Origin: Opitutaceae bacterium | GTDB taxonomy: Bacteria; Verrucomicrobiota; Verrucomicrobiia; Opitutales; Opitutaceae | Direction: 5' to 3' | Assembly: GCA_035545575.1 (NCBI GenBank) | Contig: DASZYB010000045.1 | Location: forward strand, 6,030-70,029 | DNA length: 64,000 nt | Shown here: positions 2,671 to 55,503 of the stretch, piece after piece | Layout: each line of letters starts with the position of its first letter | Numbering within the stretch: position 1 is the first letter of the stretch | Made by a program: the position numbers and the translations under genes | Notes under the pieces: model-generated | The model's input: only the letters and a program-made list of their open reading frames with translations | What the model was told of the DNA's origin: nothing | The model's database searches: none

Positions 2671-2702
2671 AGGCGCTCCCTTTCGCTGGAGCGCCTTTTT
2701 TA
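2671..2702 (+). terminator. Rho-independent terminator after tsf
   Basis: aggcgctcc (2671-2679) pairs with ggagcgcct (2688-2696) and is followed by a T-run (ttttttat). Confidence 0.7.
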
Positions 2703-2709
2703 TTTCCCG

Positions 2710-3123
2710 ATGAAAGTCACGCGCGGCCAGATTATCGCCCGAGGCCTGACCAATCGCTGCCCGAACTGCGGCAGCCGCACGCTGTTCAAGCCCGGCACGC
2801 TGTTTCAATTGAACAAAGCGTGCCCGGCCTGCGGGTTCAGGTTCGAGCGCGACAACGACGAAGGTTTTTTCCTCGGCTCGATGTCGCTCAATTACGGCGT
2901 GACGCTCGTGTGCTTCCTGCTCCCCGTGCTGCTGCTCTGGTATTACAAGGTCATCGGCGGCACGACGGCCGCGGTGCTCGCCGTCTTCGGCGCCTTCGGT
3001 TTTCCCGCGCTCTTCTACCGCTCGTCGCGGAGCTGGTGGCTGATGAATTACTATTTCTTCCTCCCGCACCATCTGCCGGCCAACGGCGGCAAAGGCCGCG
3101 GCGGCGAGGACGAAAACACCTGA
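2710..3123 (+). CDS. DUF983 domain-containing membrane protein
   Basis: ATG at 2710. MKVTRGQIIARGLTNRCPNCGSRTLFKPGTLFQLNKACPACGFRFERDNDEGFFLGSM is a zinc-ribbon (CxxC...CxxC), followed by two hydrophobic helices as in DUF983. Confidence 0.75.
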   Translation: MKVTRGQIIARGLTNRCPNCGSRTLFKPGTLFQLNKACPACGFRFERDNDEGFFLGSMSLNYGVTLVCFLLPVLLLWYYKVIGGTTAAVLAVFGAFGFPALFYRSSRSWWLMNYYFFLPHHLPANGGKGRGGEDENT

Positions 3124-3229
3124 GCGAGCGCCGCGGAAAGTCACCGCGCGCGCAAGCGATCGCGCGTGAAAATCGTCGCGCCAGCCCGAACGGCCTGTCG
3201 TTCGCGACGCGCAGCGCCTCCGCGGCATG

Positions 3230-24300: not shown

Positions 24301-24735
24301 GACGCCGGCGAAACCGCCGACGTGGTCGAGATCGTCGAAGACGGCCAGACCGTGACGTTCCGCTTCTATCACTGCAAGTATTCCGGCGGTGCGACTCCAG
24401 GCGAGCGCGTGAAGGACCTGTATGAAGTTTGCGGGCAAGTGGTCCGCAGCTCGCGTTTGGTGCACAATGCGGAAGCTCTGCTCCGTCAACTGGAGCGGCG
24501 GGAGAAACACAATCTCGGAGGCCGTCTCACGCGTTTTGAAAAAGGCGACCGCAAAACACTTGTCTCCCTCAGGCGCCGAATCCGCAAAATGAGAACTCGG
24601 TTCGAATTCTTTGTCGTGCAGCCCGGACTATCGAAGGCCGCGCTGCAACCCGATCTGGCATCCGTTCTCGGCGCCGCCGACGCCTACCTACGTGATACAA
24701 CTGGTTCCCCACTGCGGATCATTGCGAGCAAGTGA
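21400..24735 (+). CDS. SF2 (DEAH, ResIII-like) helicase, 1111 aa, with a long C-terminal extension ending in a nuclease-like motif
   Basis: Walker A VVMPTGTGKTEV (nt 21964-21987), DEAH box YFDEAHHL (22294-22305), motif III AFTATP, motif V CVDMFGEGFDLP and motif VI LQFTGRFTR. The C-terminus has IVFDDDDAGETADVVEIVEDGQTVTFRFYHCKYSGG (about 24280-24390). Confidence 0.85.
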   Translation: MSESGQKNGNGKPTTKPSTVVGELTHAKQVELPAVTISRSSKHFELRCDRSPAVLAPCTTTVLRTFAKKPVTVQVDTGAHGLFTLTRKTAADLFAQANGALQVAGFELIGETLRPRGKFAWLQHELLSAHAPERLPEEIAKSWIGGVSLAPERTGTDGRKIGLRGPQIGALHALAAHWTLGERTALVVMPTGTGKTEVMLAHTVMTVPRRLLVLVPTDPLREQTFDKFVGLGILHQHGIVHTSVQKPVVGIMRRAPQTEADLAFVPQCNVVVSTVAMLEHVPSAVLKKFTDQFDAVYFDEAHHLRARSWERVFGVLDQQRVVAFTATPYREDGLRIPLRIVYNYPLRLAQQKGYFRKIDFIEVNEIDPREADEQIAEKAVGRLKEDEAKGSRHLILARAGDRARAKLLFDSIYHPRYGELKPVLIYSGIAGKNDILKRIRRGEHRIVVCVDMFGEGFDLPALKIAAMHDIHRSLAITLQFTGRFTRDAQGVGDATLIANVAEPKVSDAIEELYAEDPDWNAIIPKLSARAIQSQLNFAQFLDRVPQGYGEEQSLFDLNIIRPKTSTVIYSCPDFQWKNFRKGLRGGDVKVHRWWPSTDKDMLVFVTHTRLRIDWALIKETTDEVWDVFVLAYDRPRKLLYIHSSHKGSLHSDLATAVGGDSARIIDGDRVFKAMHGIGRLILYSAGLYGRGRMRFRMLTGLDIAEAIGPAAQAGSTRANLFGAGYANGKRVTIGASAKGRLWSMSSSPIPDWFEWCQEVATKILDPNVRADAILQHTLVATALTALPANEVFTLLLPDDWLDANASLGKLSLAGKSYDLSSCGVTSVTRTSDGKIEFEMDVSGEHTLSFQMRWGPDEAQFGVLQVKGPDATLRVDNAIQDLTGFFRENPPVLLLVDGSEVRGGRHLKPSDAHPYTYDVATIIAADWTNVPIQEESKWKHGVMRAASIQGKVIDDCVAQKNLIVFDDDDAGETADVVEIVEDGQTVTFRFYHCKYSGGATPGERVKDLYEVCGQVVRSSRLVHNAEALLRQLERREKHNLGGRLTRFEKGDRKTLVSLRRRIRKMRTRFEFFVVQPGLSKAALQPDLASVLGAADAYLRDTTGSPLRIIASK

Positions 24736-24759
24736 TCGGAATCGCCGCCAGCTCGCTCC

Positions 24760-26298
24760 ATGGCCACAGTCTTCAACCCGGACACGCTCTACGCGTTCTA
24801 CAAGAAGGCGCGCAATCTTCTCCGGAAGTTCGAACCAGGCTCGGTAACTGGGCACATCCTAAACGCTCTGCATAAGGCCCACACTGGGGGCGTTGAGGTT
24901 CTTCGTCACTACCAGCCCTGGAACCTTCTCCTCGCTTTAAAGTGGGCGATACAGGAAGCCGATGCCACTGCACATCGTCGGCCAGCCGCGACCCTCAATG
25001 ACGTCCATCGCGTGCTCAATATCATTCATGACATGGAGGCACACGTGCGAATGCCTTCGGAATTCGAGCACGTCACGCTGTTCATGCGGCACATGGCGTT
25101 CCAGCAATTCTGGCTCCATCCGCCCGATGGCTCTGCGCTTGTTCGTCAGGAAATTCTTTTCGGCGAACTGCCGACGGGGCACGCATTCCAAAGGGAGTTT
25201 TTTGAGCTGGCTGGATTTACTGTCGCCGACAGCACCGAACTTTCCTTCGCTCTCCTCGTGGCCTTTCTCTCGGGCTCGGATCCGCGAGTCATCAATCGGG
25301 CCGATTTCGCTAACATCGAACCGAGATTATCAGTCGGCGCCCTCGACCGTTTTCTCCGCCATCTATCACGCACTCCAACCCAGCTGCGAACGTGGCTCAA
25401 TGAGCCACCGATCCGCCAAGTTTCCGTTTCGGACCAGTTCATCTTGCCGAGCCCATTCTTGCGCGCGCCCTTGCTGAACGCCGAGGGGCGGTTCTTTGTC
25501 TATCATCCGCCGCTCCTTTTCCGGGCCCTCGAGGAACTGGCGTATCGAACATTACGATCAAAGGACCCGGAATGGTTTGCCCAGAGGTTCGGTCCCATTT
25601 TTGAGCAACACGTCGCGCGGTGCCTCGCCGATGCCCGAATCACAGCGGTGCCGGAAGAGAAATCGAAAACGAGCCTAGCGGGGAGCGGCAAGTGCGTCGA
25701 CTTCCTGATCGTGGAAAACGACTGCAACGTTCTGATCGATGCCAAGGGTGTGGAGATGTCCACGGTTGGTCGCGTCTCCCACGAGGCCGAAATTGTGTAT
25801 CGTGCCGTGAAGGATTCCGCCATGAAGGCCATCGTGCAGGGGATGGATACCGTGCGGCGCATGAGGCAGACGCCGTCGGAGCGAATTCCGTTCGGCACTC
25901 ATGAGAACTACTTGCTCGTCGTAACTTTCGAGCCACTGCACCTCGGACCCAGCAACGAGCTAGGTGCTCTCTTTGGGTCGCAATTGACGCGGCGGCTTCA
26001 TCGAGACTTTGGCGAACCACTGCCGTTCTCGCTAGAAAATGTCTTCTTCTGCAGCATTGGCGAGCTTGAGCGACTGCTCGCTCGGATTCGGGCGGGTAGC
26101 ACGACGCTGCTCGCGGCGCTGCGATTCGCCAAACAGTCGGATTCCGATCGCACGACCCGGAAATTCGACTTCGGCCAGCACGTGCAGGAGCTCGGTCCTC
26201 CCGCTGATCGGCTGCCGTTCTTGGAAGATGCGCTCGGCCGATTGTGCGAGCGTTGCATACAACGCCTCCCGCCTGAGCTGAGGCGCGCCGTCAAATAG
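24760..26298 (+). CDS. Uncharacterised 512-aa protein with PD-(D/E)xK nuclease-like motif
   Basis: GKCVDFLIVENDCNVLIDAKGVEMS (about 25690-25755). It lies 24 nt downstream of the helicase gene. Confidence 0.65.
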   Translation: MATVFNPDTLYAFYKKARNLLRKFEPGSVTGHILNALHKAHTGGVEVLRHYQPWNLLLALKWAIQEADATAHRRPAATLNDVHRVLNIIHDMEAHVRMPSEFEHVTLFMRHMAFQQFWLHPPDGSALVRQEILFGELPTGHAFQREFFELAGFTVADSTELSFALLVAFLSGSDPRVINRADFANIEPRLSVGALDRFLRHLSRTPTQLRTWLNEPPIRQVSVSDQFILPSPFLRAPLLNAEGRFFVYHPPLLFRALEELAYRTLRSKDPEWFAQRFGPIFEQHVARCLADARITAVPEEKSKTSLAGSGKCVDFLIVENDCNVLIDAKGVEMSTVGRVSHEAEIVYRAVKDSAMKAIVQGMDTVRRMRQTPSERIPFGTHENYLLVVTFEPLHLGPSNELGALFGSQLTRRLHRDFGEPLPFSLENVFFCSIGELERLLARIRAGSTTLLAALRFAKQSDSDRTTRKFDFGQHVQELGPPADRLPFLEDALGRLCERCIQRLPPELRRAVK

Positions 26299-26315
26299 GC
26301 TTTGGCACCCAACCT

Positions 26316-27548
26316 ATGATAAATCCCGAGAACCCCGAGGAGTTGGAGCAGTTCGAAGGAATGGACGACGAGGCACGCGCCACCTTTGTCGTTCGCTTGC
26401 AGGATCAGTTCACCGTTTCTGTCGCACTCCGGCTTTATGCCGAAGGGCAAGCCCATGAAGCCGCTGGATTAGTCGCCGCGCCGGGCCTGCCACAAGCCGG
26501 CGATGGTTGTCGCGTCGACTTGACGCAGTGTGCACTGGCCGACTGGCGGTTCCTCGGCGAGGTGGCCGGGCGAGGCTATCTGGATGAAATGGTGGGAGGA
26601 CTAAGGATGCTGCGCTCGGGCAGTCCGCCACGCGATTCCCTGGTGGAGCTTTGCCGAAACGGATTCTTATTGCGGCAGGGAAAATTGAGGTGGGTTTACC
26701 GGCATGATCCCACTCGCAACGTGAATATCGTGTATGCCGTGTGTCGGCGGACCCACAATCCGCTAAAAAAGATATGGCGCTACTTCAGCCAGAAAAAGGC
26801 GGTCGATCTCATCGAGCGAGGGCAGATCTACCTGAGCAGGCTCGATACCTTGGCCGAGCGCGACGGCGGCGACCGCTACGAAGGCACGCCAACCATTCCT
26901 GGGGTCGCCGGATTCACCGCCGCTCTTATCGCCAGCCTTGGCCTGGCACATCCTGATTTTCTCCAACGCTATGACCATTGCCGCCGCGCAACCTTCGTTT
27001 GTTGCTGGCACAAGGCCGAGCATGAGGCGCTGCCAATGTGGCTCGGCTATTGCCGCGAAGCGCCGACTGAAGTCTCACCGCCGGTTCCAGGAGGTTTTGC
27101 GCTCCAGACGACCGAGCGTCGGCTTCAACACCAGTTCGTAAAATTTCATGATGAGCCTAGAATTCAGGGCCAACAGTTCTTTCTCCGCGACATAGATTAC
27201 GTCGACCACCGAACTCATGAGCCGCCTGCGCGCTTCGGTGAGGAAGTGTTTCTCAAAGCAAACTGGTTCCGCGACGAGAGGGAGCTTCGTCTCGGCATCC
27301 AGCGTCTCGATTGCGCATGCGCAGGCTCAGTGGTGCAGATCGAGGAAAAGCTCACGGCTTTGCCGCGATTTGTGCGATTGTCGGTCGACCTCAATGCGAT
27401 CACCGAAACAATCGTTCTCAATCCCGGCACCTCCGCCGCGAATCGAGCAGCAATCACAGGCCTGGTCACGGAGCTCTATCCTGAGCTAGCGCGGCGGATC
27501 AGAACCTCCGCATTGGAAGTGCCTCCCGTTGCCGCAACATTGAGTTAG
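26316..27548 (+). CDS. Uncharacterised 410-aa protein, possibly DUF2971-like
   Basis: RYFSQKKAVDLIERGQIYLSRLDTLAERDGGDRYEG resembles the N-terminal DUF2971 pattern (..l.lsr...f.D..EG). It lies 17 nt downstream of the previous gene. Confidence 0.55.
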   Translation: MINPENPEELEQFEGMDDEARATFVVRLQDQFTVSVALRLYAEGQAHEAAGLVAAPGLPQAGDGCRVDLTQCALADWRFLGEVAGRGYLDEMVGGLRMLRSGSPPRDSLVELCRNGFLLRQGKLRWVYRHDPTRNVNIVYAVCRRTHNPLKKIWRYFSQKKAVDLIERGQIYLSRLDTLAERDGGDRYEGTPTIPGVAGFTAALIASLGLAHPDFLQRYDHCRRATFVCCWHKAEHEALPMWLGYCREAPTEVSPPVPGGFALQTTERRLQHQFVKFHDEPRIQGQQFFLRDIDYVDHRTHEPPARFGEEVFLKANWFRDERELRLGIQRLDCACAGSVVQIEEKLTALPRFVRLSVDLNAITETIVLNPGTSAANRAAITGLVTELYPELARRIRTSALEVPPVAATLS

Positions 27549-27569
27549 CCGTTGGGCCCACGCACCGCC

Positions 27570-28781
27570 TCAGGTAGAAGCCGGTGCCGCACTTGAAAAG
27601 TGACGCGCGATTACCCGAAGGCGCCGCAGCAGGTCGTCGTAGGTCATGATGTCGACGACGTGTCGGTATTTCCGACGGATCACTTCGAAGTCCGCTTTTT
27701 GGTCGGCCGTGAGCGCTTCATCTCGGCCCAAGATGATCAGGCCGGAAGGATTCACGATCTTGATGGTGAGCCCGGCAGGCAACTTATCACCGTAGCGCTC
27801 ATTCAGCTTTTTCTCTCCTTCGACGCCCCACCGGTTAAGGTGGTAGAGATATTTTTCAAGCTGCATGACGGTTCCGTTTAGTTCGCGCATCGGCACATGA
27901 TTATCCCGATACCGCGTGCTGGTCACAACACACTCGGCGAAGGGCTTCTTGATCTCGGCGGCATCGACGTAACCGGACGCATCTACAAGTAGAAAATCGA
28001 TTTCGCGATTCTTGCCTGCAAGGCTGTCGCGGACCGGCGCTCCGGTGAAGGCCGCGACATATTTGGGATAGAGCAACTGAATGACCTGCAGAATCTCCGC
28101 CTGCCACTGTGCCTCCGAGTAGGTTTCCGCGCGTTTGAGCATCGCCTCGAGCTTTGCGACCAGTTCAGAGAATTTGTCGGTCTCGTAGGGCGCGAAGGTC
28201 TGCGCTGGCTGCGATCCCTTGGCCGAGCGCTTCCGATTTCGAAATTTCGTATACTCGGCCTCAAAGTCACGATCGAGAGGAACGTAGCTGCGGATCATGC
28301 TGCTGACCCTTGCGCGAGCATACTTTTTCAACTCTGTGGTCGTCGGGAACTGTCGCAGGAGATCCTCAAAAACCTTTTTGGGCAAAGCATCCGGGTGATC
28401 ACCGCCAATGTAGAAGCTACTAAAACCATGTTTCTGGAAGCCCCGAAAAATGGGGATGTTGGTTTCAGCGACGAACGTGGTGCGTTTGAATTCCAGCGAC
28501 TCATGCAAGAAGAGGTCGTAATCGACGTCCAACACGCGCCGATCCATCCGGTAGTAGCCGCCCTCTACTTTTTCCCCGACGACGAACTGATACATCGCAT
28601 CCATGGGGCCTTCCGTGTTCGGGGCTTCGCGCAGATAGATTTCCTTTCGCACGAAAAACGTCCGACTGGAGAGTGCAACCGGCTCACCCGATTCAATTGG
28701 TTCGAGCAGCCAGTCCGGTTCGGCATTCTCTGGGTGATAGCGAAGAATAAGCGCCTTATCTTGGGGGTCGAAGTCGATCAT
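27570..28781 (-). CDS. sduA: Shedu-like defence protein (SduA, DUF4263 nuclease domain)
   Basis: NREIDFLLVDASGYVDAAEIKKPF...MQLEKYLYHL...LIILGRDEALTADQKADFEVIRRKYRHVVDIMTYDDLLRRL matches the DUF4263 C-terminal pattern: the D..E.K core, then viiGr, then a trailing TYDdLl. Confidence 0.7.
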   Translation of the reverse strand: MIDFDPQDKALILRYHPENAEPDWLLEPIESGEPVALSSRTFFVRKEIYLREAPNTEGPMDAMYQFVVGEKVEGGYYRMDRRVLDVDYDLFLHESLEFKRTTFVAETNIPIFRGFQKHGFSSFYIGGDHPDALPKKVFEDLLRQFPTTTELKKYARARVSSMIRSYVPLDRDFEAEYTKFRNRKRSAKGSQPAQTFAPYETDKFSELVAKLEAMLKRAETYSEAQWQAEILQVIQLLYPKYVAAFTGAPVRDSLAGKNREIDFLLVDASGYVDAAEIKKPFAECVVTSTRYRDNHVPMRELNGTVMQLEKYLYHLNRWGVEGEKKLNERYGDKLPAGLTIKIVNPSGLIILGRDEALTADQKADFEVIRRKYRHVVDIMTYDDLLRRLRVIARHFSSAAPAST

Positions 28782-43354: not shown

Positions 43355-43403
43355 CGCGGGATGCTGCCGCCTGCCCGGCCGCCGAGGATGGTGGCTCGCC
43401 CGT

Positions 43404-43435
43404 CAAGGTCGTGCTCCTGCGTCGCCTCCACCTTG
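43404..43435 (+). repeat. Copy A of a conserved ~31-nt motif (caaggtNgtgctcctgcgtcgcctccacctt)
   Basis: It differs from copy B (53326-53357) at 1 of 31 positions. The ends caaggt/accttg can pair. Confidence 0.7.
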
Positions 43436-47719: not shown

Positions 47720-47857
47720 GACACCCGAGCCGCGGATTCAACCGGAATCTGCGGCAGCGAGTGCAACGAAGTGCGAGCAGTCACATGCCGCGACGGAGGC
47801 AGGAACGGTCTACTTCCGCGCGTTTTCCCATCGTTTATGGGATGCTTCACATAAACC

Positions 47858-47959
47858 ATGGTATGACGCGCGGAGAGTAATGTTTAGTGGTTCACACGCG
47901 CGGGGTCGCGCACGAGTAGCCGCCGGCATTTCACCGTCGCGGCAGCTTCACATAATCGC
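47858..47959 (+). repeat. RIT left inverted repeat (32-nt perfect core plus subterminal ttcacataatcgc)
   Basis: atggtatgacgcgcggagagtaatgtttagtg at 47858-47889 and ttcacataatcgc at 47947-47959. Confidence 0.8.
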
Positions 47960-47962
47960 CGT

Positions 47963-48460
47963 CTAGGCGACGACCGTCGAAGACGCCTTCGCTGCCTTCA
48001 CGGCCGCTTTCACATTGCCGAGGCAGCACGAACCCTGCGGATTGCGAATCTCGCACGAACAGAAATCCGATTTCATTTCCGCGGCGATGCGCTCGACCAC
48101 GGTGGATTTGCCTGTGGCGGCCAACTCGTCGCGAATCATAGCTGGCGTGAAACCGAAACAATAACACACGTGTGCGTGTTCCGAATCCTTTTGCGTCACG
48201 GGGCGCCGAACGTCGCTCGTAGTCAGGACCGGGCCGTCGGCGGCAAAATAAACCACCGGACAATCAGGCGTGGCGCAGAAATGAAAGCCACCACCGTTCA
48301 CCTCCGTCAGGAACTGCGGCTTGACCTGATGTTTGAGCGTCAGGGTCGAAACAGGCCGGCCGGCGCGTCCGCATTGAGGGCAAGGTGGCTTCGCCACTGC
48401 TTTTGCGGCGGACGACGCCGCGTTGTTTTCAGATGAGCAGCAGTCAGACATCGCAGTCAA
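47963..48460 (-). CDS. Cys-rich putative metal/Fe-S-binding protein (Zn-ribbon plus BFD-like CxC motif)
   Basis: CPQCG..., HFCATPDCPVVYF, VCYCFGFTPAMIRDEL and CSCEIRNPQGSCCLGNV. There is a 4-nt overlap with the merT-HMA gene. Confidence 0.6.
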   Translation of the reverse strand: MTAMSDCCSSENNAASSAAKAVAKPPCPQCGRAGRPVSTLTLKHQVKPQFLTEVNGGGFHFCATPDCPVVYFAADGPVLTTSDVRRPVTQKDSEHAHVCYCFGFTPAMIRDELAATGKSTVVERIAAEMKSDFCSCEIRNPQGSCCLGNVKAAVKAAKASSTVVA

Positions 48461-49047
48461 TTGATCGGCTCGGCTTTGAATCCGGTCGCGTCGATCTTTG
48501 CAATCAGGGCGCTGGCAGAAATCGTCGCAGGGTCGAAGACGACCTCCGCTTCCTTTTCTTCATAGCGCACGACCGCGGAACGAACTCCCGGAACTCGTTT
48601 GAGCGTTCCCTCAATGCCGTGCGCGCAGGCAACGCAATCCATGCTGGGGATGCGGACGCGAAGGACGCTGCCTTGCGCGGTCGCTCCCGTCGCGGCCAAC
48701 GGTTGGCGTGCGGTGATTTGGGTGATCTGCGGAAACATCGCAACCGCGCCAACGAGGACCGTGCTGAAAATCAAGGCGCCCAGCGCCCAACGTCCGCCTT
48801 GTGAGGCTGCGCAGGTTGAGTCCTGGCTCGCGATGCGACGAGCGCGCAGCGTGAGCACCCAGGCAACGGCGAGCAGCACGGCGGTGGCCGCCAAAAATGC
48901 CGGCCGCCAGCGCTCGAACCAGCCGGCGGCAGCAAAGCTGCCGGCACCCGCAGCGAGCGCGAGCAGTGGTCCGATGCAGCAAAGTGACGCCGCGAGGGCG
49001 GACAAGAATCCGCCCGCCAGAATCCACGATTGCTTCACCGGTTGCAT
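48457..49047 (-). CDS. merT: MerT-like mercuric transporter fused to a C-terminal HMA (MerP-like) domain
   Basis: The first TM helix LSALAASLCCIGPLLAL carries the MerT CC pair. The C-terminal HMA fold reads LRVRIPSMDCVACAHGIEGTLKRVPGVRSAVVRYEEKEAEVVFD. Confidence 0.75.
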   Translation of the reverse strand: MQPVKQSWILAGGFLSALAASLCCIGPLLALAAGAGSFAAAGWFERWRPAFLAATAVLLAVAWVLTLRARRIASQDSTCAASQGGRWALGALIFSTVLVGAVAMFPQITQITARQPLAATGATAQGSVLRVRIPSMDCVACAHGIEGTLKRVPGVRSAVVRYEEKEAEVVFDPATISASALIAKIDATGFKAEPIN

Positions 49048-49056
49048 GGCGACAGG

Positions 49057-49079
49057 TTACACCCTATACCATAGTGTAA
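49057..49079. promoter_or_regulatory. MerR-type operator candidate (ttacac-N11-gtgtaa) in the divergent merT/merR promoter
   Basis: The inverted repeat is centred in the 50-nt gap between the merT-like start (49047) and the merR start (49098). Confidence 0.55.
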
Positions 49080-49097
49080 GGTCAAGACCGCCATCTG

Positions 49098-49514
49098 ATG
49101 ACAATCGGGGAACTCGCCAAACGCGCCGGAGTGAACGTCCAGACGATCCGCTATTATGAGCGGGTGAAACTCTTCGCCGCGACACACCGATGGCCGGGCT
49201 CCGGCTACCGCGACTTCGACGAGGACGCGCTGCTCCGGCTGCGGTTCATCCGTTCGGCAAAGGAACTCGGCTTCACCCTCCAGGAAATTAGAGAGTTGAT
49301 TGATCTCAGGATTTTGCCGGGCGAGTCCTGCGGGGAAGTGAAGCACCTCCTCAAGGCGAAGCGGCAGGAAATCGGCGAACGCATGACGGAGATGAGACGA
49401 CTGCAAAAAGCGTTGGACAAGTTGATCGGTGCGTGCAGCCACCGTCGCAACAAATCCACCTGCCCAGCTCTTTGGGCGATCATGGAACGCGCCGAGCTCG
49501 TCGTGAAAACATGA
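49098..49514 (+). CDS. merR: MerR-family metal-responsive transcriptional regulator
   Basis: MTIGELAKRAGVNVQTIRYYERVKLF is the HTH. Three Cys residues are spaced as in Hg-sensing MerR (CGEVKHL; CSHRRNKSTC). Confidence 0.85.
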   Translation: MTIGELAKRAGVNVQTIRYYERVKLFAATHRWPGSGYRDFDEDALLRLRFIRSAKELGFTLQEIRELIDLRILPGESCGEVKHLLKAKRQEIGERMTEMRRLQKALDKLIGACSHRRNKSTCPALWAIMERAELVVKT

Positions 49515-49960
49515 GCCCGGTGCCCGACCCCGAGTTGAAGGTAGAAGTGATCTGCGAACATCTGCCCGCACACTGCGGGGCGGAGCCGATCCTCCTTGGC
49601 ATCCAACGCGGGCGCGAGGTGATCGATATTGTTCCCGCCGTCGCCGGGCGAGCTGTGTTCCACGCCGCGTTCAAGGTGGTGGATGCGGACGGCCATCTGA
49701 AGCTACTCGGCCCATTTGCCCAAGGAACGCCGGCCGAAAGGTTCTTTTACCTCTCGTGGGGCACCAAGGGAAGCGGCGGCCGGTTCGAAATGTTCCGGCG
49801 GTTGAAAGTGCATTTGCGACATCTCTCCTGGCGGAAGATAAAACCAGCCATCGTTCAACAACGACCGGTGCGCGTCACGCTGGACATGACGGACGAAAAA
49901 GGCGGAGCGCGTTGCGGCTCGGCCCACGACGGGACAGTCGCATGGCAGTATCCGCCGTGA
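49511..49960 (+). CDS. DUF5990-like protein
   Basis: The ATG overlaps the merR stop (ATGA). GPFAQGTPAERFFYLSWGTKGSGGRFEMFRRLKVHL matches my recollection of the DUF5990 core. Confidence 0.5.
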   Translation: MSPVPDPELKVEVICEHLPAHCGAEPILLGIQRGREVIDIVPAVAGRAVFHAAFKVVDADGHLKLLGPFAQGTPAERFFYLSWGTKGSGGRFEMFRRLKVHLRHLSWRKIKPAIVQQRPVRVTLDMTDEKGGARCGSAHDGTVAWQYPP

Positions 49961-49971
49961 AGCGAATCGAT

Positions 49972-50973
49972 CTACAGCGCTTCAAGAAAAGCCAGCAAAC
50001 GCGACGACGGATCGCGCCTCGGGCGGTGCGCCGGTGGTAGTTCTTCCAGACGACGCAGTGATTCCTCCTTCATCTTTAAGTCGGCTTCAACGTAGCCATG
50101 TGTGGTGACTGGATGCTCATGTCCCAGCCAGAGCGCGATGACCTCAAGCGCCACGCCGGATTGCAACAAGTGCATCGCACAACTGTGCCGGAACGAGTGC
50201 AGTCCAATCTTGCGGCCAGCGAGCGTAGGACATTGAGGCGTCGCACGCCGAATTGCCTGCTTCAACCGTAGTCGTGCCGCATGCCGCGTAATACACTCTT
50301 TCTCGGCGTTCACAAAAATGTGCCGGCCGGGTTGAAGCTGGTTCTCGCGACACCAGCGTTGAATCTCCGCAGCGGTGCGCGACCAAATCGGCACAACTCG
50401 TTCCTTGCGACCCTTGCCATGCAGTCGGACAACACGGTTCTGAACATCTTCCGGCTTCACGCCCAGCGCCTCTGAAATCCGCGCACCGGTGTTATAGAGC
50501 AGCACGAACAGGAGATGGTCGCGACGACCAATCCACATCGCGGTTTCAGTTGCGTTGAGAATGGCCTCGACTTCACCGCGGGTCAGATAGGCCAGAACTG
50601 GCCGCGTCGATCGTTTGATTGGAATGGCCAGCAGTCGCGACCCTTGGACGAACACGCCCGGCTCCGCCAAGCTGATCACGAAGCGGGTGAAGGCACGAAT
50701 CGCGGCCAAGCGATGGTTACGAGTCCGAGGGCTGTTGGTTCTGGCGCGTTCAAGGTGATCCAGAAATGCCAGCACCGTGTCGGGCGTGAGGGAGTCGAGT
50801 GACAGTCGATCGATGGTGACCCGCAGATGCACCGACAGGAACCGGAGCAGGAGTCGGAACGTGTCCCGATACGCCGCGATCGTGTGCTGGCTCAGATTAC
50901 GTTGCGCGGTCAGATACTCGGTAAAAAACCGCTGCAACAATACCGGGAAAGTGAGCCGAACTTGGTTTAGCAT
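49972..50973 (-). CDS. Tyrosine recombinase, third gene of the trio (RitC position)
   Basis: N-terminal SAM-like core-binding domain. The catalytic tail reads HSFRHSCAMHLLQSG...LGHEHPVTTHGYV. Confidence 0.9.
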   Translation of the reverse strand: MLNQVRLTFPVLLQRFFTEYLTAQRNLSQHTIAAYRDTFRLLLRFLSVHLRVTIDRLSLDSLTPDTVLAFLDHLERARTNSPRTRNHRLAAIRAFTRFVISLAEPGVFVQGSRLLAIPIKRSTRPVLAYLTRGEVEAILNATETAMWIGRRDHLLFVLLYNTGARISEALGVKPEDVQNRVVRLHGKGRKERVVPIWSRTAAEIQRWCRENQLQPGRHIFVNAEKECITRHAARLRLKQAIRRATPQCPTLAGRKIGLHSFRHSCAMHLLQSGVALEVIALWLGHEHPVTTHGYVEADLKMKEESLRRLEELPPAHRPRRDPSSRLLAFLEAL

Positions 50974-51893
50974 GCGGCGTGAAAGTTTTCAAAACGTGCG
51001 CCCGCACGGCGGAGCATCTTTTCGTCGGCCGAGACATACCACCACGTGTCCCCGAAATCCCGATGGCCGAGATACCGCGAGAGGAGGAACAGCCGGTGGG
51101 TCACTGGCGCGCGGTCGCGACTCCAGCGCGCAATATGTCGCGTGGCAAAAGTATGCCGCAGGTCATGGATGCGAGCCGCGGGTCGCTCGCCGTTAGGGGC
51201 GATGCCGACGCGGATGGCGCGGAAAGTGTGCTGCACGCTTGTGCGGCGCAACGGACGTCCCGCGCGGCCCACGAAGAACATCTCGCCGAATGGGTGCCTG
51301 CGCCACCGGAGATCCCGGTAACGGCGAAGCGCGGCAATCGTCGTCGCATGAAGAGGCAGCACGCGTTCCGGGCTGAACTTGCAGCGTCGGAGCCGGATCA
51401 TCCCGCCATCGAAGTCGACGTCGGCGAGTCGCAACTCCATCGCTTCCCGCAGCCGCATTCCGGTGCATGCAATTAGGCCGATAAATGTCTCATAGGTCTG
51501 CGGTCGTAGCGGGGAGCGAAACGTGGGTAGTGCGCGCGCACGAAGCATCAACGACCGAATCTCGTCATCGGAGTAAATGTGCGGAGTCGCGCGCCGATAC
51601 CATGGGCCGATCAACCTGTAGTCAGGGACTTGAACTCGCGGATCGATTGCCGCGCAGTATTTGGCAAGTCCCCGGGCCGACATCAGACGTTTGGCATAGT
51701 AGGTCGACGAGCCAGTGCCTGGCTGCACTGCCCATTTTAGAATCACGCTCGTTTGCAGCGGCTTTCCCGGTGCGATGCGCTGATGGAACCGCGCCAGTTT
51801 CGGGAGTGAGCGATGCTCGGCCTCGAGGACAAAGCCCAGTCTGCGCCGATGGGCGAGATATTGCCGGACGAGGACGGTGAGCGGCGATATCAT
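50967..51893 (-). CDS. Tyrosine recombinase, second gene of the trio (RitB position)
   Basis: The ATG at 51893 overlaps the stop of the upstream gene. Catalytic motifs: TGMRLREAMEL...HDLRHTFATRHI...LGHRDFGDTWWYV. Confidence 0.88.
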   Translation of the reverse strand: MISPLTVLVRQYLAHRRRLGFVLEAEHRSLPKLARFHQRIAPGKPLQTSVILKWAVQPGTGSSTYYAKRLMSARGLAKYCAAIDPRVQVPDYRLIGPWYRRATPHIYSDDEIRSLMLRARALPTFRSPLRPQTYETFIGLIACTGMRLREAMELRLADVDFDGGMIRLRRCKFSPERVLPLHATTIAALRRYRDLRWRRHPFGEMFFVGRAGRPLRRTSVQHTFRAIRVGIAPNGERPAARIHDLRHTFATRHIARWSRDRAPVTHRLFLLSRYLGHRDFGDTWWYVSADEKMLRRAGARFENFHAAC

Positions 51894-53110
51894 CGTAGCG
51901 GCCACGGCACGGTGAGCGCGCGAAGGCCTACCGGATCGACCTTCGCGTAGATCGTTGTGGTTTGCAGATGCCGGTGCCCGAGGAGATCGGCGATATGCTT
52001 CAGATCGGCACCGCGTGCATGCAGTCGCGTAGCAAAGGTGTGACGCAGTCGATAGCAGCCAATCCACTCATGGGGAAACTTGCAGCGCCGGTATGCCGCC
52101 TTGATGGCATAACCCACCGCTCGTGAATCCAGCGAATTGCCAAGCGGGTCGGGTGCGTGACGAACAAAGAGTCGGTCGGAATCACAGGACGGTCGATGGT
52201 CGTCAACGTAGCTACGCAGGGCGGTCAAAACGCGACCGACAAGCGGCAGTTCGCGCTCATGCTTGGATTTGATCGCGGGAACCAGAAGCGTCTTTCGATT
52301 CCAGTCGACGCTCGTGAGCATGAGGTGAGCGACCTCTCCTGGCCGCAGGCCAAGATCAACCATGCACAGCGCGAGACAGTAGTCGCGAGCGCCGATGGCC
52401 GTCCGTTGGTCGAATGACGCCAGCAGCGCACGCCGTTGTTCGTCGGTGAGGATGGCTGGTCCTCTCGTCCGGCCGAAGTTGGAAAAACGGGGCACCGCTG
52501 AAACAAGATGCCCGGTGGGCTGACCGCGCATGTGCAGAAATCGAAAGAATCGTCTCAGGCGAACCAGATCGTGATTGAGAGTGCTGGTCTTGCGGCCGCG
52601 ACCAAATGAATGCGCATAGCCCCAGATGTCCTTCGGCTTAACACGTCGCCAGTCAGCCTGACGTTTGCCGAACTGGCGCATGAGGTAACGAGTGAGGATA
52701 TCGCGGTATCCTCGGCGCGTGGGCGGCGCCAAACCTTCATGGCGATCGAGGAACCCGATGAAGTCGTCTACCAGTGGCCGCCAAGGGTAGTCCGGCTCGG
52801 CGCGGGTTGGCGCGGGCTCGCGAAATCGAAACCAGCTAGCGAGACCCGACCTGTAATCCTTGCGGGAATACCACCCCCAATAGTCCGCTGCCGACGCCGC
52901 GAGCAAGGCGGGCGCGTGCCGGCGGCGCAGGCGAATGAGAGTCCGTCGCCGCTGCGCCAACCATCGGGCAGCGTGACTGACTGCCCATCGAATCCGCCCG
53001 ATCGACTTTGCTGCGAGACCACGGTCACGCAAAAACTCCAAGAATGGACCGTCGAATAGCGCGCGGTCCGCGCGAGACATGCCAGTCGTGGAGCGAGATT
53101 TTTGCATCAT
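51890..53110 (-). CDS. Tyrosine recombinase, first gene of the trio (RitA position)
   Basis: Catalytic motifs: GLRPGEVAHL...YRLRHTFATRLHARG...LGHRHLQTTTIYA. Confidence 0.9.
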   Translation of the reverse strand: MMQKSRSTTGMSRADRALFDGPFLEFLRDRGLAAKSIGRIRWAVSHAARWLAQRRRTLIRLRRRHAPALLAASAADYWGWYSRKDYRSGLASWFRFREPAPTRAEPDYPWRPLVDDFIGFLDRHEGLAPPTRRGYRDILTRYLMRQFGKRQADWRRVKPKDIWGYAHSFGRGRKTSTLNHDLVRLRRFFRFLHMRGQPTGHLVSAVPRFSNFGRTRGPAILTDEQRRALLASFDQRTAIGARDYCLALCMVDLGLRPGEVAHLMLTSVDWNRKTLLVPAIKSKHERELPLVGRVLTALRSYVDDHRPSCDSDRLFVRHAPDPLGNSLDSRAVGYAIKAAYRRCKFPHEWIGCYRLRHTFATRLHARGADLKHIADLLGHRHLQTTTIYAKVDPVGLRALTVPWPLR

Positions 53111-53209
53111 CGTTCAACGGGCAGAAAGCCGGTTGAACATCTCGCCACACTTCCAGCGTGTTATCTTGTCAGTGAAGGCGCAAGCGCGCCGCTGCCCGCC
53201 TTCCCCAGC

Positions 53210-53311
53210 GCGATTATGTGAACTGAGGCTACATCCACGCGATGCTTCGTCGGTCGTAAATGCCCAGCGCGGGCTGACTCACTAAACATTACTCTCCGCG
53301 CGTCATACCAT
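53210..53311 (-). repeat. RIT right inverted repeat
   Basis: cactaaacattactctccgcgcgtcataccat at 53280-53311 is the exact reverse complement of 47858-47889. gcgattatgtgaa at 53210-53222 is the reverse complement of 47947-47959. Confidence 0.8.
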
Positions 53312-53325
53312 CGTAGCACGCCCGC

Positions 53326-53357
53326 CAAGGTAGTGCTCCTGCGTCGCCTCCACCTTT
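53326..53357 (+). repeat. Copy B of the conserved ~31-nt motif, 15 nt outside the RIT right end
   Basis: caaggtagtgctcctgcgtcgcctccacctt. Upstream context cacgcccgccaagg is shared with copy C (cacgcccggcaagg). Confidence 0.7.
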
Positions 53358-53507
53358 CCGCCGTCAGCTCACCTGTCGCGCGCGCATGAAGGCGCGCGCT
53401 CCGCCGCCGCGGCGTGGCTGGGCGTGCCCGCATGGGCCAACGCGCGGGCGGAGCCCGGCAACCGGACACGGTGTCCGGTCCGGAGATGAAGCTCGTGCGT
53501 CGGCACA

Positions 53508-54242
53508 ATGAATCAGATCTCATTCGAATTGGGCGACGCGGCCAAGGTGGAGTTTGCGATGGCGGTGAGCGAGCGACCGCAGAACCGGCTGGAAAACTTC
53601 GGACCCGCGGCCTTGAGCGATACTGAACTTCTGGCGATGACGCTTCAGGGGAATGGCATCTGCCCCGAGCTGGCATTGCAGCTCGCATCACGGCTGATCG
53701 TTGCCGCAGGTTCGGTGGCAGGCCTGCTTTCTTGGACACCCGACGATTACCGCCGGATGAAAGGCATCGGCCAGCTCAAGGGATCGCAGCTCGCGGCGAC
53801 AGCCGAACTCGCGCGGAGGATGATGCTTCGTTCGCAACCCGTGGCACCACTCCTGAATCGAGCGGACCTGGTCGCGGCGCATCTTGCTCCCACGGCAGCG
53901 GGCCTCGAAGTCGAAAAGTTTTGGGTCCTGTGTTTGAACAGGAAGAACCGGTTGGTGAAGCAGGTCGAAATCACGACCGGGACGGCGACGGCGGCGCTAG
54001 CGCATCCGCGCGAGGTCTACCGCGCCGCGATCCGTAATTCCGCCGCAGCAATCATCTGCGCCCACAATCATCCGAGCGGTGATCCGTCACCGAGCGCGCC
54101 GGACGTGCAGGTCACGCGCCAGCTCCGTGAAGCGGCGAAGACCATCGACATCGAACTCCTCGATCACGTGATCGTCGGCCGCAGCGATGCCGATCCGCAG
54201 GGCCTGGGCTACTTCAGCTTCCGCGAGGCGGGGATGCTGTGA
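53508..54242 (+). CDS. radC: RadC-family JAB/MPN domain protein
   Basis: The N-terminal HhH region is LSDTELLAMTLQGNG...MKGIGQLKGSQLAATAELARR. The JAMM motif CAHNHPSGDPSPSAPDVQVT is intact. Confidence 0.9.
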   Translation: MNQISFELGDAAKVEFAMAVSERPQNRLENFGPAALSDTELLAMTLQGNGICPELALQLASRLIVAAGSVAGLLSWTPDDYRRMKGIGQLKGSQLAATAELARRMMLRSQPVAPLLNRADLVAAHLAPTAAGLEVEKFWVLCLNRKNRLVKQVEITTGTATAALAHPREVYRAAIRNSAAAIICAHNHPSGDPSPSAPDVQVTRQLREAAKTIDIELLDHVIVGRSDADPQGLGYFSFREAGML

Positions 54243-54261: not shown

Positions 54262-55266
54262 CTAAAGGTAAACTGCCCTAAGCCACGCCTTGCCGAGAAT
54301 ATCCAAAGGGCGACCAGTGCTGACCATTTCCCGCAGCTGTTTACCAGTGACAGGCACGATTAAGGCATCCTCCCGAGAACCTCGCAGCATTTCTTTTCTG
54401 ATCGTATCGGTAAACCCGTTCCACGACACCAAAAAGCCGAGTGAGCAACGGCCTTTGCGGTTCAAGATTTTCTCTCGAAATGTGACGAAATCGTCTTTTC
54501 CGCATTTGCCTGTCCAGTTCTTACATTCGACGAGAAACAGCACCGACTCGCGCTTGAACCGTACATCGTCGCAATCATTCAGGACTGTGAGATCAATTTC
54601 TTCGGTTTCCGTTCTCACTCGATCCGTTACGGTCAAACCGCGAATCGATCCGAACAGTCTCGCGACCAATTCCTCTAGCGAGCGCCCTTTTTCATCTGTC
54701 GTTTTCGCATTTTGGACAGCTCTAGAAAGCTTGTTGAGGGAGATTGTCCCCAATCCCGAAATGCGTTGCCCGATTTCCGTGGCCAGCGCGCCGGCCTTTA
54801 ATGACGCCTCTTCAGCTGGCTCTTCAAGCTCTGCGATTCGCGACTTCACGATCTCGAATGCTTCACCAAGATTCCGAGGCAATTCATGAAGTTCGAAAAT
54901 GAGATTGATGACGCTCGAATCTTCCTCGTCCCAATCCAAAAGCTCCACGTCTCGATGCGATCGCTGGCGCGTTTCAATACTTCGTCGAACCAGGTCCAAG
55001 TAGTGGGTCATCCCAAGCGGCTTCTCCCAATATTTGCGAAACGAGCTATAGTCGCAGTGCGCTGCAAGGTCTTTTCCCAGCCTGAAGAAGTGACCGTCCC
55101 ACACGACCCTCGCCACGTTCCCGATCGTTTCACCTACTCCGATGAGTGCCCCTTTAGGAATATCATCGCAGTTTAGGTGGCGTAACGCCTCCTCCGGCAC
55201 ATGAGTGGGCTCTTCGAACTCATCTTCACCTGAGGGCAACAACTTCAAGGCTTCAGCTCTCGTCAT
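54262..55266 (-). CDS. Restriction-endonuclease-fold (Mrr_cat-like) protein with an unrecognised N-terminal domain
   Basis: GRSLEELVARLFGSIRGLTVTDRVRTETEEIDLTVLND...SVLFLVECKNWTGKCGKDDFVTF is the Mrr_cat D...ExK pattern. The region is visibly A/T-richer than its neighbours. Confidence 0.7.
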   Translation of the reverse strand: MTRAEALKLLPSGEDEFEEPTHVPEEALRHLNCDDIPKGALIGVGETIGNVARVVWDGHFFRLGKDLAAHCDYSSFRKYWEKPLGMTHYLDLVRRSIETRQRSHRDVELLDWDEEDSSVINLIFELHELPRNLGEAFEIVKSRIAELEEPAEEASLKAGALATEIGQRISGLGTISLNKLSRAVQNAKTTDEKGRSLEELVARLFGSIRGLTVTDRVRTETEEIDLTVLNDCDDVRFKRESVLFLVECKNWTGKCGKDDFVTFREKILNRKGRCSLGFLVSWNGFTDTIRKEMLRGSREDALIVPVTGKQLREMVSTGRPLDILGKAWLRAVYL

Positions 55267-55363
55267 AGCGTGTCGGCAGCAATCATAAGCTGCGGCAAAA
55301 TCTGATGTCGAGGGACTGATTAAGAACGCCTGCCCGCTGGTTCTCCCAGCCTACCACGCCCGG

Positions 55364-55390
55364 CAAGGTAGTGCGCTGCGCGCCTCCACC
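55364..55390 (+). repeat. Copy C (diverged) of the conserved motif, upstream of the second RadC-like gene
   Basis: caaggtagtgcgctgcgcgcctccacc shares both flanks of the motif, with a middle that is 2 nt shorter. Confidence 0.5.
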
Positions 55391-55503
55391 GCGGCCGGCA
55401 AGCCGGCCTTTGCCTGGGCGTGCTGACGGACTGGGAGAGCGGGCTGTCGACGACATCCCGGCACGACGCCGGAGCGGAGATGCCGCCCGCGACCTCGCCC
55501 GTT

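What the first reader, a model, noticed from the sequence alone, without database searches (positions are those of the whole stretch)
47858..53311. Recombinase-in-trio (RIT) element with symmetric ~100-nt ends and a merA-less mercury-type cargo, nested in the ICE
Three tyrosine-recombinase genes overlap by 4 and 7 nt (51890-53110, 50967-51893, 49972-50973). This is the hallmark of RIT elements.

The ends are a perfect 32-nt inverted repeat (47858-47889 and 53280-53311). A second 13-nt inverted repeat (ttcacataatcgc) lies exactly 89 nt inside each terminus, so each end is about 102 nt with conserved outer and inner boxes. These are plausible binding sites for different recombinases of the trio. 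A further ttcacataa copy (47846-47854) lies 3 nt outside the left end.

The left IR is separated from the trio by about 2 kb of passenger genes: a Cys-rich protein, a MerT-HMA fusion, a divergent MerR with an operator, and a DUF5990-like gene. As far as I recall, most RIT elements carry only the three recombinases. A cargo-bearing copy would therefore be informative about how these poorly understood elements move genes.
Basis: partly seen in the sequence, partly recalled or inferred. Interest (0 to 1): 0.68.

Follow-up and report, generated by a model that had tools for sequence, protein, structure and literature searches.

The report
Cargo-carrying three-recombinase (RIT) mobile element
This is a real "recombinase-in-trio" mobile element that, unlike the usual three-gene form, also carries a four-gene metal-handling module, and relatives and empty sites show where and how it integrates next to radC on conjugative elements.

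Summary
In detail: a perfect 32-nt inverted repeat (IR), inner TTCACATAATCGC boxes 89 nt inside each end, three overlapping tyrosine-recombinase genes and four passenger genes.

The recombinases are one-to-one orthologues of RitA, RitB and RitC of a published RIT. The RitA model shows the family's double core-binding domain.

The whole seven-gene unit is the mobile unit. Elements with RitA 88%, 66% and 55% identical carry the same cargo inside the same two-box ends. The 66% element has at least four different flanks.

Syntenic conjugative elements with an empty site show that 5,480 bp were inserted at TTCCGCGCGTTTTCC-CATCGT-AGCACGCCCGCCAAGG, about 190 bp upstream of radC. CATCGT is present at both junctions.

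An element-specific 20-nt palindrome plus a second 6-nt box sits between the target and one IR.

I infer a circular intermediate with an IR-palindrome-IR joint and two symmetric crossover sites. Insertion orientation differs between loci.

"Mercury-type" is not established: MerR and MerTP score below family cut-offs, and no MerA was found.

Verdict: a new cargo-bearing variant of a known but mechanistically unstudied element class, with attB, attP and overlap now predicted and testable.

The parts
47815..47828 (+). Target half-site B (TCCGCGCGTTTTCC). It mimics the IR tip TCCGCGCGTCATAC and is not part of the element.
   Evidence: It is conserved in empty sites L039, L041-L044, L051, L054 and L055. 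It is 85% identical to 53295-53314 (D19).
47829..47834 (+). Left copy of the 6-nt CATCGT, the probable overlap or crossover region (O1).
   Evidence: The same hexamer lies at 53309-53314. Empty sites have a single copy between B and B'.
47835..47854 (+). Element-borne 20-nt palindrome TTATG-N10-CATAA. It is made of two inverted inner-box-like motifs and includes the third TTCACATAA.
   Evidence: It is absent from empty sites. Its N10 tracks the element lineage, not the target.
47855..47860 (+). Second 6-nt box (O2, ACCATG; reverse complement CATGGT) between the palindrome and the IR tip.
   Evidence: It varies between copies of one element: ACCATG versus ACCGCC in L025.
47858..47889 (+). The part constant across copies starts at 47861 (GTATGAC...).
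47947..47959 (+). Cargo-side inner box TTCACATAATCGC.
   Evidence: It lies 3 nt beyond the stop codon of the last cargo gene.
47963..48451 (-). Cargo gene: Cys-rich CopZ-N-terminal-like putative Fe-S/Zn metallochaperone (162 aa).
   Evidence: PF18423, E 3e-21. NF047645, 142 bits, above the cut-off of 100.
48457..49047 (-). Cargo gene: MerT-HMA (MerTP-like) membrane metal transporter (196 aa).
   Evidence: PF02411 and PF00403. NF033556, 110 bits, below the cut-off of 180.
49050..49087 (-). MerR-type promoter and operator for merTP: TTGACC, 20 nt with the dyad TTACAC/GTGTAA, then TAACCT.
   Evidence: Read directly. The standard sigma-70 scan with 16-18 nt spacing finds nothing, as expected for an over-long MerR-type spacer.
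49098..49514 (+). Cargo gene: MerR-family metal-responsive regulator with Cys78 and a C-X8-C motif. Its metal is undetermined.
49511..49960 (+). Cargo gene: DUF5990 protein (149 aa). Its start overlaps the merR stop codon.
   Evidence: PF19452, E 1e-27. No NCBIfam match.
49972..50973 (-). ritC (333 aa).
   Evidence: 43% identical to EbN1 RitC, E 2e-82. Cross-matches to RitA and RitB are E 6e-12 or weaker.
50967..51893 (-). ritB (308 aa).
   Evidence: 35% identical to EbN1 RitB, E 4e-57.
51890..53110 (-). ritA (406 aa), with two successive four-helix core-binding domains followed by the catalytic domain.
   Evidence: E 5e-40 to EbN1 RitA. AlphaFold model with pLDDT 89.
53210..53222 (-). ritA-side inner box.
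53280..53311 (-). ritA-side outer IR box. The tip GTCATAC ends at 53308.
53309..53314 (+). Right copy of CATCGT (O3).
   Evidence: (D19, spacing 5480).
53315..53330 (+). Target half-site B' (AGCACGCCCGCCAAGG), 178 nt upstream of radC. It is not part of the element.
   Evidence: The same motif follows the IR tip at independent junctions in L018, L028, L029, L040 and L022, and it is present in the empty sites.

Best explanation
Window 47829/35-53308/14 (5,480 bp) is an intact RIT element that has acquired a four-gene, MerR-regulated metal-handling module in the slot between ritC and the ritC-side end.

It is a site-specific integrative element, not a duplicating transposon. It sits in a conserved site of about 36 bp, B-O-B' (TTCCGCGCGTTTTCC-CATNNT-[A/G][G/T]CA[C/T]GCCCG[C/T]CAAGG), roughly 190 bp upstream of radC on conjugative elements. 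The left half of this site imitates the element's own IR tip.

Shown by comparison:
- The exact insertion, with one 6-nt O in empty sites and one at each junction of occupied sites.
- Conservation of the outer and inner boxes at both ends.
- Co-mobility of the cargo.
- A 20-nt palindrome plus second 6-nt box that travels with the element. It always lies on the B side, and it can be attached to either the ritA end or the cargo end.

Inferred:
- The element excises as a circle whose joint reads IR tip-O-palindrome-O-IR tip.
- This joint offers two mirror-image core sites. Strand exchange in either 6-nt O with attB explains both insertion orientations. O sequences differ between junctions, so heterology seems to be tolerated.
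- RitA, RitB and RitC divide the work between the IR tips, the TTCACATAA-type boxes (two inner boxes plus the two palindrome halves) and the target.

The cargo probably gives the host a regulated thiophilic-metal uptake and chaperone function. That function would complement the copper, zinc and cadmium efflux genes of the surrounding conjugative element.
For: RIT membership:
- One-to-one orthology with a published RIT.
- RitA double core-binding domain.
- Overlaps of 4 and 7 nt.

The unit includes the cargo:
- The same seven genes lie inside the same ends in L017 (RitA 88%), L018-L027 (66%) and L034 (55%).
- No end boxes lie between ritC and the cargo.

Mobility:
- The 66% element is 99.96-100% identical in copies with at least 4 ritA-side flanks and 2 cargo-side flanks.

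Empty sites:
- L055 and L042 keep the order coupling protein/relaxase/ORF6C-like gene/attB/radC without the element.
- L039, a 94-kb contig, aligns across the junction.
- The D19 repeat spacing of 5,480 fits the insertion size.

The palindrome belongs to the element:
- Three elements in targets with identical B and O have three different N10 sequences.
- One element in three different B contexts has a single N10.

Orientation:
- radC is next to the ritA end in the window and next to the cargo end in L018.

Canonical cargo-less relatives use the same site:
- L028 sits upstream of radC, and L029 has copies inside and upstream of radC.
- This matches published rit insertions in radC (PMC2864759, PMC3414803).
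Against: - No circle junction was observed in any contig, and no experiment exists for any RIT (PMC10214605, Table 1).
- The window's own copy is seen in only one context.
- Two short contigs do not fit a single simple insertion. L022 has the spacer-less junction type at both ends, and L124 has the palindrome at both ends. I explain them by recombination, or assembly chimerism, between two copies, but this is untested.
- The L024 unitig stops 6 nt beyond both tips with no palindrome visible.
- The phylogeny cannot tell a single cargo gain from cargo transfer.
- The metal specificity is unknown.
Confidence: 0.7

Rival explanations
1. The mobile unit is only IR tip to IR tip. It moves like Tn916 or Tn554, with 6-nt coupling sequences and a spacer-less IR-IR circle. 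The 26-nt palindrome segment would then be a longer allele of the target, or a footprint of earlier visits, rather than part of the element.
For: A spacer-less joint would be a textbook core site: perfect inverted arms around 6 nt. The L024 unitig ends 6 nt beyond both tips, and L022 has no palindrome at either end. The nucleotides next to the tips vary between copies.
Against: The N10 of the palindrome follows the element lineage in a two-way comparison. Identical B and O sequences go with three different N10 sequences, and three different B contexts go with one N10. None of eight empty sites contains a palindrome. L124 carries the same lineage-specific palindrome twice.
Confidence: 0.15
2. 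The trio is not self-mobile. The 5.5-kb block is an accessory segment of conjugative elements, exchanged between them by homologous recombination through the conserved radC-upstream sequences. The recombinases would serve the host element, for example in resolution or inversion.
For: Most contexts are radC-upstream regions of related conjugative elements, which share B and B'. No transposition of any RIT has been reproduced (PMC10214605).
Against: Shared flank identity is only about 15-30 nt, and beyond it the flanks are unrelated. Junctions precise to the nucleotide recur in elements whose recombinases are only 50-60% identical. Junctions also occur in unrelated coding sequence, next to glycosidase-like and BNR-like ORFs, at B'-like motifs. 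The end boxes co-evolve with the trio.
Confidence: 0.08
3. The left IR is a solo end of a second, decayed RIT, so the cargo only happens to lie between two elements. In that case the unit is not mobile.
For: RITs do pile up near radC: L029 has two copies.
Against: The cargo-side end is perfect over 32 nt and has its own inner box. The same arrangement is kept in four diverged elements and in several contexts. Empty sites bracket the whole 5,480 bp.
Confidence: 0.03

Closest known systems
Canonical RIT elements (Cupriavidus metallidurans CH34 ritA2B2C2 in radC of CMGI-2/Tn6054; Bordetella petrii GI3 rit; Aromatoleum aromaticum EbN1 copies)
   Same: ritA-ritB-ritC order with ATGA-type overlaps. 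Orthologous proteins. Terminal IRs of about 30 nt. A palindrome overlapping one end, as noted in PMC3414803. Association with radC on integrative conjugative elements (PMC2864759).
   Different: 5.48 kb and seven genes instead of about 3.5 kb and three genes. Four passenger genes lie between ritC and its end. It is inserted upstream of an intact radC rather than interrupting it. attB, the overlap and empty sites are defined here, whereas target specificity is listed as not tested in PMC10214605.
Tn916 / CTnDOT-type integrative elements
   Same: A tyrosine-recombinase element with inverted core sites at its ends. The 6-nt sequences next to the ends differ between junctions (CATCGT versus CATTCT in L018), as coupling sequences or heterologous overlaps do.
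   Different: Three recombinases and no Xis-like gene. A strongly sequence-specific target. A palindromic spacer that gives two alternative crossover sites. No conjugation genes of its own.
Tn554, GInts and strand-biased circularizing elements (SEs)
   Same: Multi-recombinase, site-specific integrative elements that carry cargo downstream of the recombinase operon and carry over 6-bp flanks (PMC10214605, PMC5385486).
   Different: Those elements lack long terminal IRs. They include a non-recombinase fourth protein (TnpC, Srap or GinD). Their recombinases belong to other subfamilies. Here all three proteins keep the catalytic R...HxxR...Y residues.
mer operons (Tn21/Tn501 merRTPA)
   Same: A divergent MerR-family regulator with an over-long-spacer dyad promoter, and MerT plus HMA (MerP-like) transport domains.
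   Different: No MerA. MerR and MerTP score below the equivalog cut-offs, and ZntR scores almost as well as MerR. There are additional CopZ-N-terminal-like and DUF5990 genes.

Membership tests
RIT (recombinase in trio) elements | Three adjacent, co-directional tyrosine-recombinase genes with overlaps of 4-8 bp | tested here: met
   51890-53110, 50967-51893 and 49972-50973 overlap by 4 and 7 nt. All three have PF00589.
RIT (recombinase in trio) elements | Fixed order RitA-RitB-RitC, each protein in its own subfamily | tested here: met
   Against the EbN1 RIT the matches are A-A E 5e-40, B-B E 4e-57 and C-C E 2e-82. All cross-pairs are E 7e-15 or weaker.
RIT (recombinase in trio) elements | RitA has two sequential core-binding domains (PMC8138268) | tested here: met
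   AlphaFold model, pLDDT 89: four-helix bundles at residues 13-97 and 111-194 precede the catalytic domain.
RIT (recombinase in trio) elements | RitC has an extra conserved C-terminal helix (PMC8138268) | tested here: inconclusive
   The alignment with EbN1 RitC runs to the last residue. Both end in ...LLxFLxxL. No structure was modelled.
RIT (recombinase in trio) elements | Catalytic R...HxxR...Y present in all three proteins | tested here: met
   RitA invariant residues are R242, K281, R356, H379 and Y388. RitB (LRHTFATR...WWY) and RitC (FRHSCAM...HGY) were read from the translations.
RIT (recombinase in trio) elements | Terminal inverted repeats of about 30 bp (34 bp in PMC10214605) | tested here: met
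   Perfect 32-nt IR. The outer box is conserved in 14 ends.
RIT (recombinase in trio) elements | About 3.5 kb, holding only the three recombinase genes | tested here: not met
   5,480 bp and seven genes. This is what makes it a variant. Relatives L028, L030, L120-L124 are canonical.
RIT (recombinase in trio) elements | Evidence of mobility (identical copies in different places) | tested here: met
   Met for the sister element, which has at least 4 flanks, and by empty sites. The window's own copy is seen in one context only.
Mercury resistance (mer) operon | MerR equivalog | tested here: not met
   TIGR02051 scores 112.4 bits against a cut-off of 150.85. ZntR NF007069 scores 109.9.
Mercury resistance (mer) operon | MerT/MerP or MerTP transporter equivalog | tested here: not met
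   NF033556 MerTP_fusion scores 110.2 bits against a cut-off of 180. The Pfam MerT and HMA domains are present.
Mercury resistance (mer) operon | Mercuric reductase MerA | tested here: not met
   There is none among the element's seven genes. No pyridine-nucleotide-disulfide oxidoreductase was found among the 20 large window ORFs scanned. Smaller ORFs were not all scanned.
Integrative conjugative element (context) | Relaxase, coupling protein, mating-pair formation genes, integrase and att boundaries | tested here: inconclusive
   TrwC relaxase, TraG-D_C coupling protein, TrbI and a TraG P-loop ATPase are present. A tRNA lies at 845-918. No integrase was identified and the ends were not mapped.
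radC RNA motif (RF01754) as the target | Covariance-model score above the gathering threshold | tested here: not met
   The only hit is at the second radC-type site, 55319-55423: 14.2 bits against 40, E 9.9. There is no hit in 10 related loci.

The most novel reading that the evidence does not exclude
RIT elements are site-specific hitch-hikers of conjugative elements. Their circular form carries a quasi-palindromic attachment region (IR tip-O-palindrome-O-IR tip) with two mirror-image crossover sites. They target a conserved 36-bp sequence in front of radC-type genes, and half of that sequence mimics the IR tip. The slot between ritC and its inner box is a recurrent cargo-capture site, holding a metal module in four lineages and a sigma-factor-like module in another. 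This makes RITs a cargo-moving platform with three recombinases specialised for three kinds of site.
Probability: 0.45. Interest if true: 0.75.

Novelty: new variant of a known kind. Interest (0 to 1): 0.62.

Why it matters
RITs are widespread, found in seven phyla by my recollection of Ricker 2013. Even so, a 2023 review table still lists their target specificity, empty site and mode of movement as "not tested" (PMC10214605).

This locus and its relatives supply concrete, testable sequences:
- a 36-bp attB;
- a 6-nt overlap;
- a predicted circle joint;
- three classes of putative binding sites.

They also show that RITs can move passenger genes between conjugative elements. A compact 5.5-kb element with defined ends and a selectable or reportable metal-responsive cargo would be a convenient model for working out why three tyrosine recombinases are needed.

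Tried and rejected
- **Plasmid megablast.** The whole element found nothing in PLSDB. tblastn of the DUF5990 protein also found nothing there.
- **5,450-bp Logan contigs.** L001 and L002 first looked like evidence for a repeat or a circle. I rejected this: they span exactly 47860-53309, which is what a k=31 de Bruijn graph yields at a perfect 32-nt IR.
- **Genome scan for the flank motif.** That scan was based on my then-mistaken idea that the palindrome might be target sequence.
- **Flanking-protein look-ups.** Look-ups of the window's flanking proteins returned only the same junctions.
- **radC RNA motif as target.** This is not supported.
- **L022 as an interrupted gene.** Its flanks encode unrelated protein types, so they do not form one interrupted gene. 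I treat the contig as a two-copy recombinant or chimera.
- **Circle junction.** None was found in any fetched locus.
- **Papers not held.** Ricker 2013 (Plasmid 70:226) and Mahbub 2023 (Environ Microbiol 25:3387) are not held. I could not check whether cargo inside RIT IRs was already described there.
- **Phylogeny.** A concatenated RitABC neighbour-joining tree could not resolve whether the cargo was gained once. Support is 4-18% outside the window/L017/L024 clade.

Full report
**1. Observation**

- The 32-nt inverted repeat (IR) at 47858-47889 and 53280-53311 is perfect and unique in the window. No match is expected by chance, and no further copies appear at up to 3 mismatches. With one mismatch it extends to 35-40 nt.
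- The inner box TTCACATAATCGC lies 89 nt inside each terminus.
- TTCACATAA occurs only three times in 64 kb against 0.12 expected. The third copy is at 47846-47854.
- The three minus-strand ORFs overlap by 4 and 7 nt and each carries a Phage_integrase domain.
- The passenger genes are a CopZ-N-terminal-like Cys-rich protein, a MerT-HMA fusion, a MerR-family regulator and a DUF5990 protein.
- In the 50-nt divergent gap I read a MerR-type promoter: TTGACC, a 20-nt spacer holding the dyad TTACAC...GTGTAA, then TAACCT.

**2. Source and a false lead**

The window is identical to GCA_964543085.1 contig CAZIWD010000017.1. Several Logan contigs of exactly 5,450 bp carry the element. They span 47860-53309, which is what a k=31 assembly graph produces at a 32-nt perfect IR. 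I do not count them as evidence of mobility. All contigs carrying the window's flanking genes show the same two junctions.

**3. Family membership**

A published RIT exemplar, from Aromatoleum aromaticum EbN1 plasmid 2 (PMC3414803), was fetched.
- The window's three proteins match its RitA, RitB and RitC one to one: E 5e-40, 4e-57 and 2e-82. Cross-matches are no better than 7e-15.
- An AlphaFold model of RitA, built on 49 homologues with pLDDT 89, shows two successive four-helix bundles before the catalytic domain. This is the RitA hallmark described in PMC8138268.
- RitC shares the C-terminal LLxFLxxL tail with EbN1 RitC.
- All three proteins keep the catalytic residues.

So this is a RIT. 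The one family feature it fails is "about 3.5 kb, three genes only".

**4. The cargo belongs to the mobile unit**

Homologues of RitA were traced to their contigs.
- RitA proteins 88% (L017), 66% (L018-L027) and 55% (L034) identical sit in the same seven-gene unit of about 5.45 kb.
- A 63% relative (L033) carries a different cargo in the same slot: a 260-aa protein and a 565-aa ECF-sigma-like protein.
- Relatives at 47-58% (L028, L029/L030, L120-L124) are ordinary three-gene RITs.

All share the same end design. An alignment of 14 ends conserves only the outer box and the inner box T[TG]C[AC]CATAATC, at fixed spacing. In the cargo carriers the ritC-side boxes lie beyond the cargo, 3 nt after the stop codon of the last cargo gene. 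Only 11 nt separate ritC from the cargo. In canonical elements the inner box abuts or overlaps the 3' end of ritC.

The 66% element occurs as 99.96-100% identical copies with at least four different ritA-side flanks and two cargo-side flanks. The whole unit therefore moves.

Cargo proteins are 74-96% identical between elements whose RitA proteins are 49-63% identical. A RitABC tree supports window+L017+L024 at 100%. It leaves L028 (no cargo), L033 (other cargo) and L034 (same cargo) unresolved. A single gain followed by loss cannot be told apart from cargo transfer.

**5. Target and true boundaries**

A scan for radC relatives returned 80 loci. Eight carry an unoccupied site. Two of these, L055 and L042, keep the window's gene order of coupling protein, relaxase, ORF6C-like gene, site, radC. 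L039 aligns across the junction.
- The empty site reads TTCCGCGCGTTTTCC-CATNGT-[A/G]CCACGCCCG[C/T]CAAGG.
- In the window the same flanks enclose 5,480 bp. The left junction reads TTCCGCGCGTTTTCC-CATCGT(47829-34)-TTATGGGATGCTTCACATAA-ACCATG-GTATGAC...
- The right junction reads ...GTCATAC-CATCGT(53309-14)-AGCACGCCCGCCAAGG. This matches the 5,480-nt repeat spacing seen.

The left target half (B) resembles the IR tip: TCCGCGCGT-TTTC-C against TCCGCGCGT-CATA-C.

Read outward from any IR tip, every junction in every locus is one of two kinds:
- tip-O6-B';
- tip-O6-TTATG-N10-CATAA-O6-B.

The palindrome belongs to the element. With identical B and O sequences, the window, the 66% element and L124 have three different N10 sequences. 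The 66% element keeps one N10 in three different B contexts. No empty site has a palindrome.

The palindrome always ends up on the B side. It is joined to the cargo end in the window and to the ritA end in L018, L028 and L124. Correspondingly, radC faces the ritA end in the window and the cargo end in L018.

The O sequences can differ between the two junctions of one copy (CATCGT and CATTCT in L018). O2 varies between copies (ACCATG and ACCGCC).

**6. Mechanism (inference)**

These facts fit conservative site-specific recombination between attB (B-O-B') and a circular form. The joint of that circle would read IR tip-O-palindrome-O-IR tip, giving two mirror-image core sites. Use of one or the other sets the orientation. 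Heterology in O appears to be tolerated, as in Tn916 or CTnDOT.

The palindrome halves resemble the inner box (YCMCATAA). The circle would therefore present four such boxes and two IR tips. That is a natural basis for dividing labour among three recombinases, but this step is pure inference.

No circle junction was found in the data held. No RIT has ever been moved experimentally (PMC10214605).

Two contigs do not fit one simple insertion. L022 has tip-O-B' at both ends, and L124 has the palindrome at both ends. Recombination, or assembly chimerism, between two copies in inversely oriented sites would give exactly these two reciprocal products.

**7. Cargo function**

The regulator scores highest against MerR but below the cut-off, and almost equally against ZntR. 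The transporter resembles MerTP but also scores below the cut-off. Only the CopZ-N-terminal-like protein passes its family threshold.

No MerA was found in the element or in the 20 large ORFs of the window that I scanned. Those ORFs instead include CzcCBA-type efflux, a CDF transporter, P-type ATPases and a multicopper oxidase (with gene calls).

A merR plus CopZ-N-like pair also exists on a Stenotrophomonas plasmid.

"Regulated thiophilic-metal uptake and chaperone module" is as far as the evidence goes.

**8. Comparison with the literature**

Already published:
- rit trios interrupting radC on CMGI-2/Tn6054 and in Bordetella petrii (PMC2864759, PMC3414803);
- an IR of about 28-34 bp with a palindrome overlapping one end (PMC3414803, PMC10214605);
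- 47-51-bp palindromic repeats at rit ends (PMC5737581).

Not found in the papers I could read:
- passenger genes inside the IRs;
- empty sites;
- a defined attB and overlap.

The second links RITs with metal-resistance regions, according to bioRxiv 2024.06.12.598671. Priority for "cargo-bearing RIT" therefore cannot be excluded.

**9. Verdict**

It is a new cargo-bearing variant of a known element class. Its value is that it turns the open question of how RITs move into a set of specific, testable sequences.

Noticed in passing
window 55334-55367 (also 43391-43434): A second, unoccupied attB-like site, GCTGGTTCTCC-CAGCCT-ACCACGCCCGGCAAGG, lies upstream of a second, shorter radC-like gene. The same O (CAGCCT) and B' are used by a RIT in L029. 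A third B'-like copy lies at 43391. The motif heads a GC-rich structured region upstream of radC-type genes (DNA fold z = -2.8 for 53300-53510).
   Followed up: partly
window 55319-55423: A weak, non-significant match to the radC RNA motif RF01754 (14.2 bits against a gathering score of 40, E 9.9) overlaps the second attB-like site. There is no hit at the occupied site or in 10 related loci.
   Followed up: yes
window 51890-53110 (L004 7864-9084): The gene calls held for the NCBI assembly GCA_964543085.1 omit the intact 406-aa ritA. They list only a 73-aa ORF on the other strand. This is an annotation gap that would hide the trio from gene-based RIT searches.
   Followed up: partly
L029 5760-13184: Two different RITs lie side by side. 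One splits a radC gene into 67-aa and 121-aa fragments. It has a 29-nt IR and a 32-nt palindrome next to its ritA end. The other lies upstream of that radC. A group II intron reverse transcriptase is next door.
   Followed up: partly
L033 3438-5991: A RIT (RitA 63% identical) carries a different cargo in the same slot after ritC: a 260-aa protein with no family match and a 565-aa protein with an N-terminal ECF sigma-70 region.
   Followed up: partly
L124 1177-2701 and 2929-6440: A canonical RIT lies next to Kiwa defence genes (KwaA/KwaB). It has the lineage-specific palindrome and a B-like half-site at both ends, which suggests a rearrangement between two copies.
   Followed up: partly
L017 (whole 5,450-bp contig): This contig's IR is perfect for only 30 nt, too short to break a k=31 graph. 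Yet the contig starts and stops exactly at ATG plus the IR tip on both sides. That is what several junction types in one sample would give, and it hints at multiple copies or orientations in ERR15232724.
   Followed up: no
window 21400-28781: Defence genes sit within the conjugative element: a ResIII/DEAD helicase (21400-24735) and a Shedu SduA_C protein (27570-28781). An Mrr-like nuclease (54262-55266) lies beside radC.
   Followed up: no
window 845-918: A tRNA gene on the minus strand (64 bits) may be the attachment site of the surrounding conjugative element. No integrase domain was found in the two large ORFs next to it (1031-2665 and 2650-3675).
   Followed up: partly
L125 (CP031730.1 301746-302687): On a Stenotrophomonas rhizophila plasmid, a merR gene is directly followed by a CopZ-N-like (2Fe-2S)-binding protein gene, next to Tn7-like tnsA. 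A MerR plus CopZ-N-like pair therefore exists independently of RITs.
   Followed up: no
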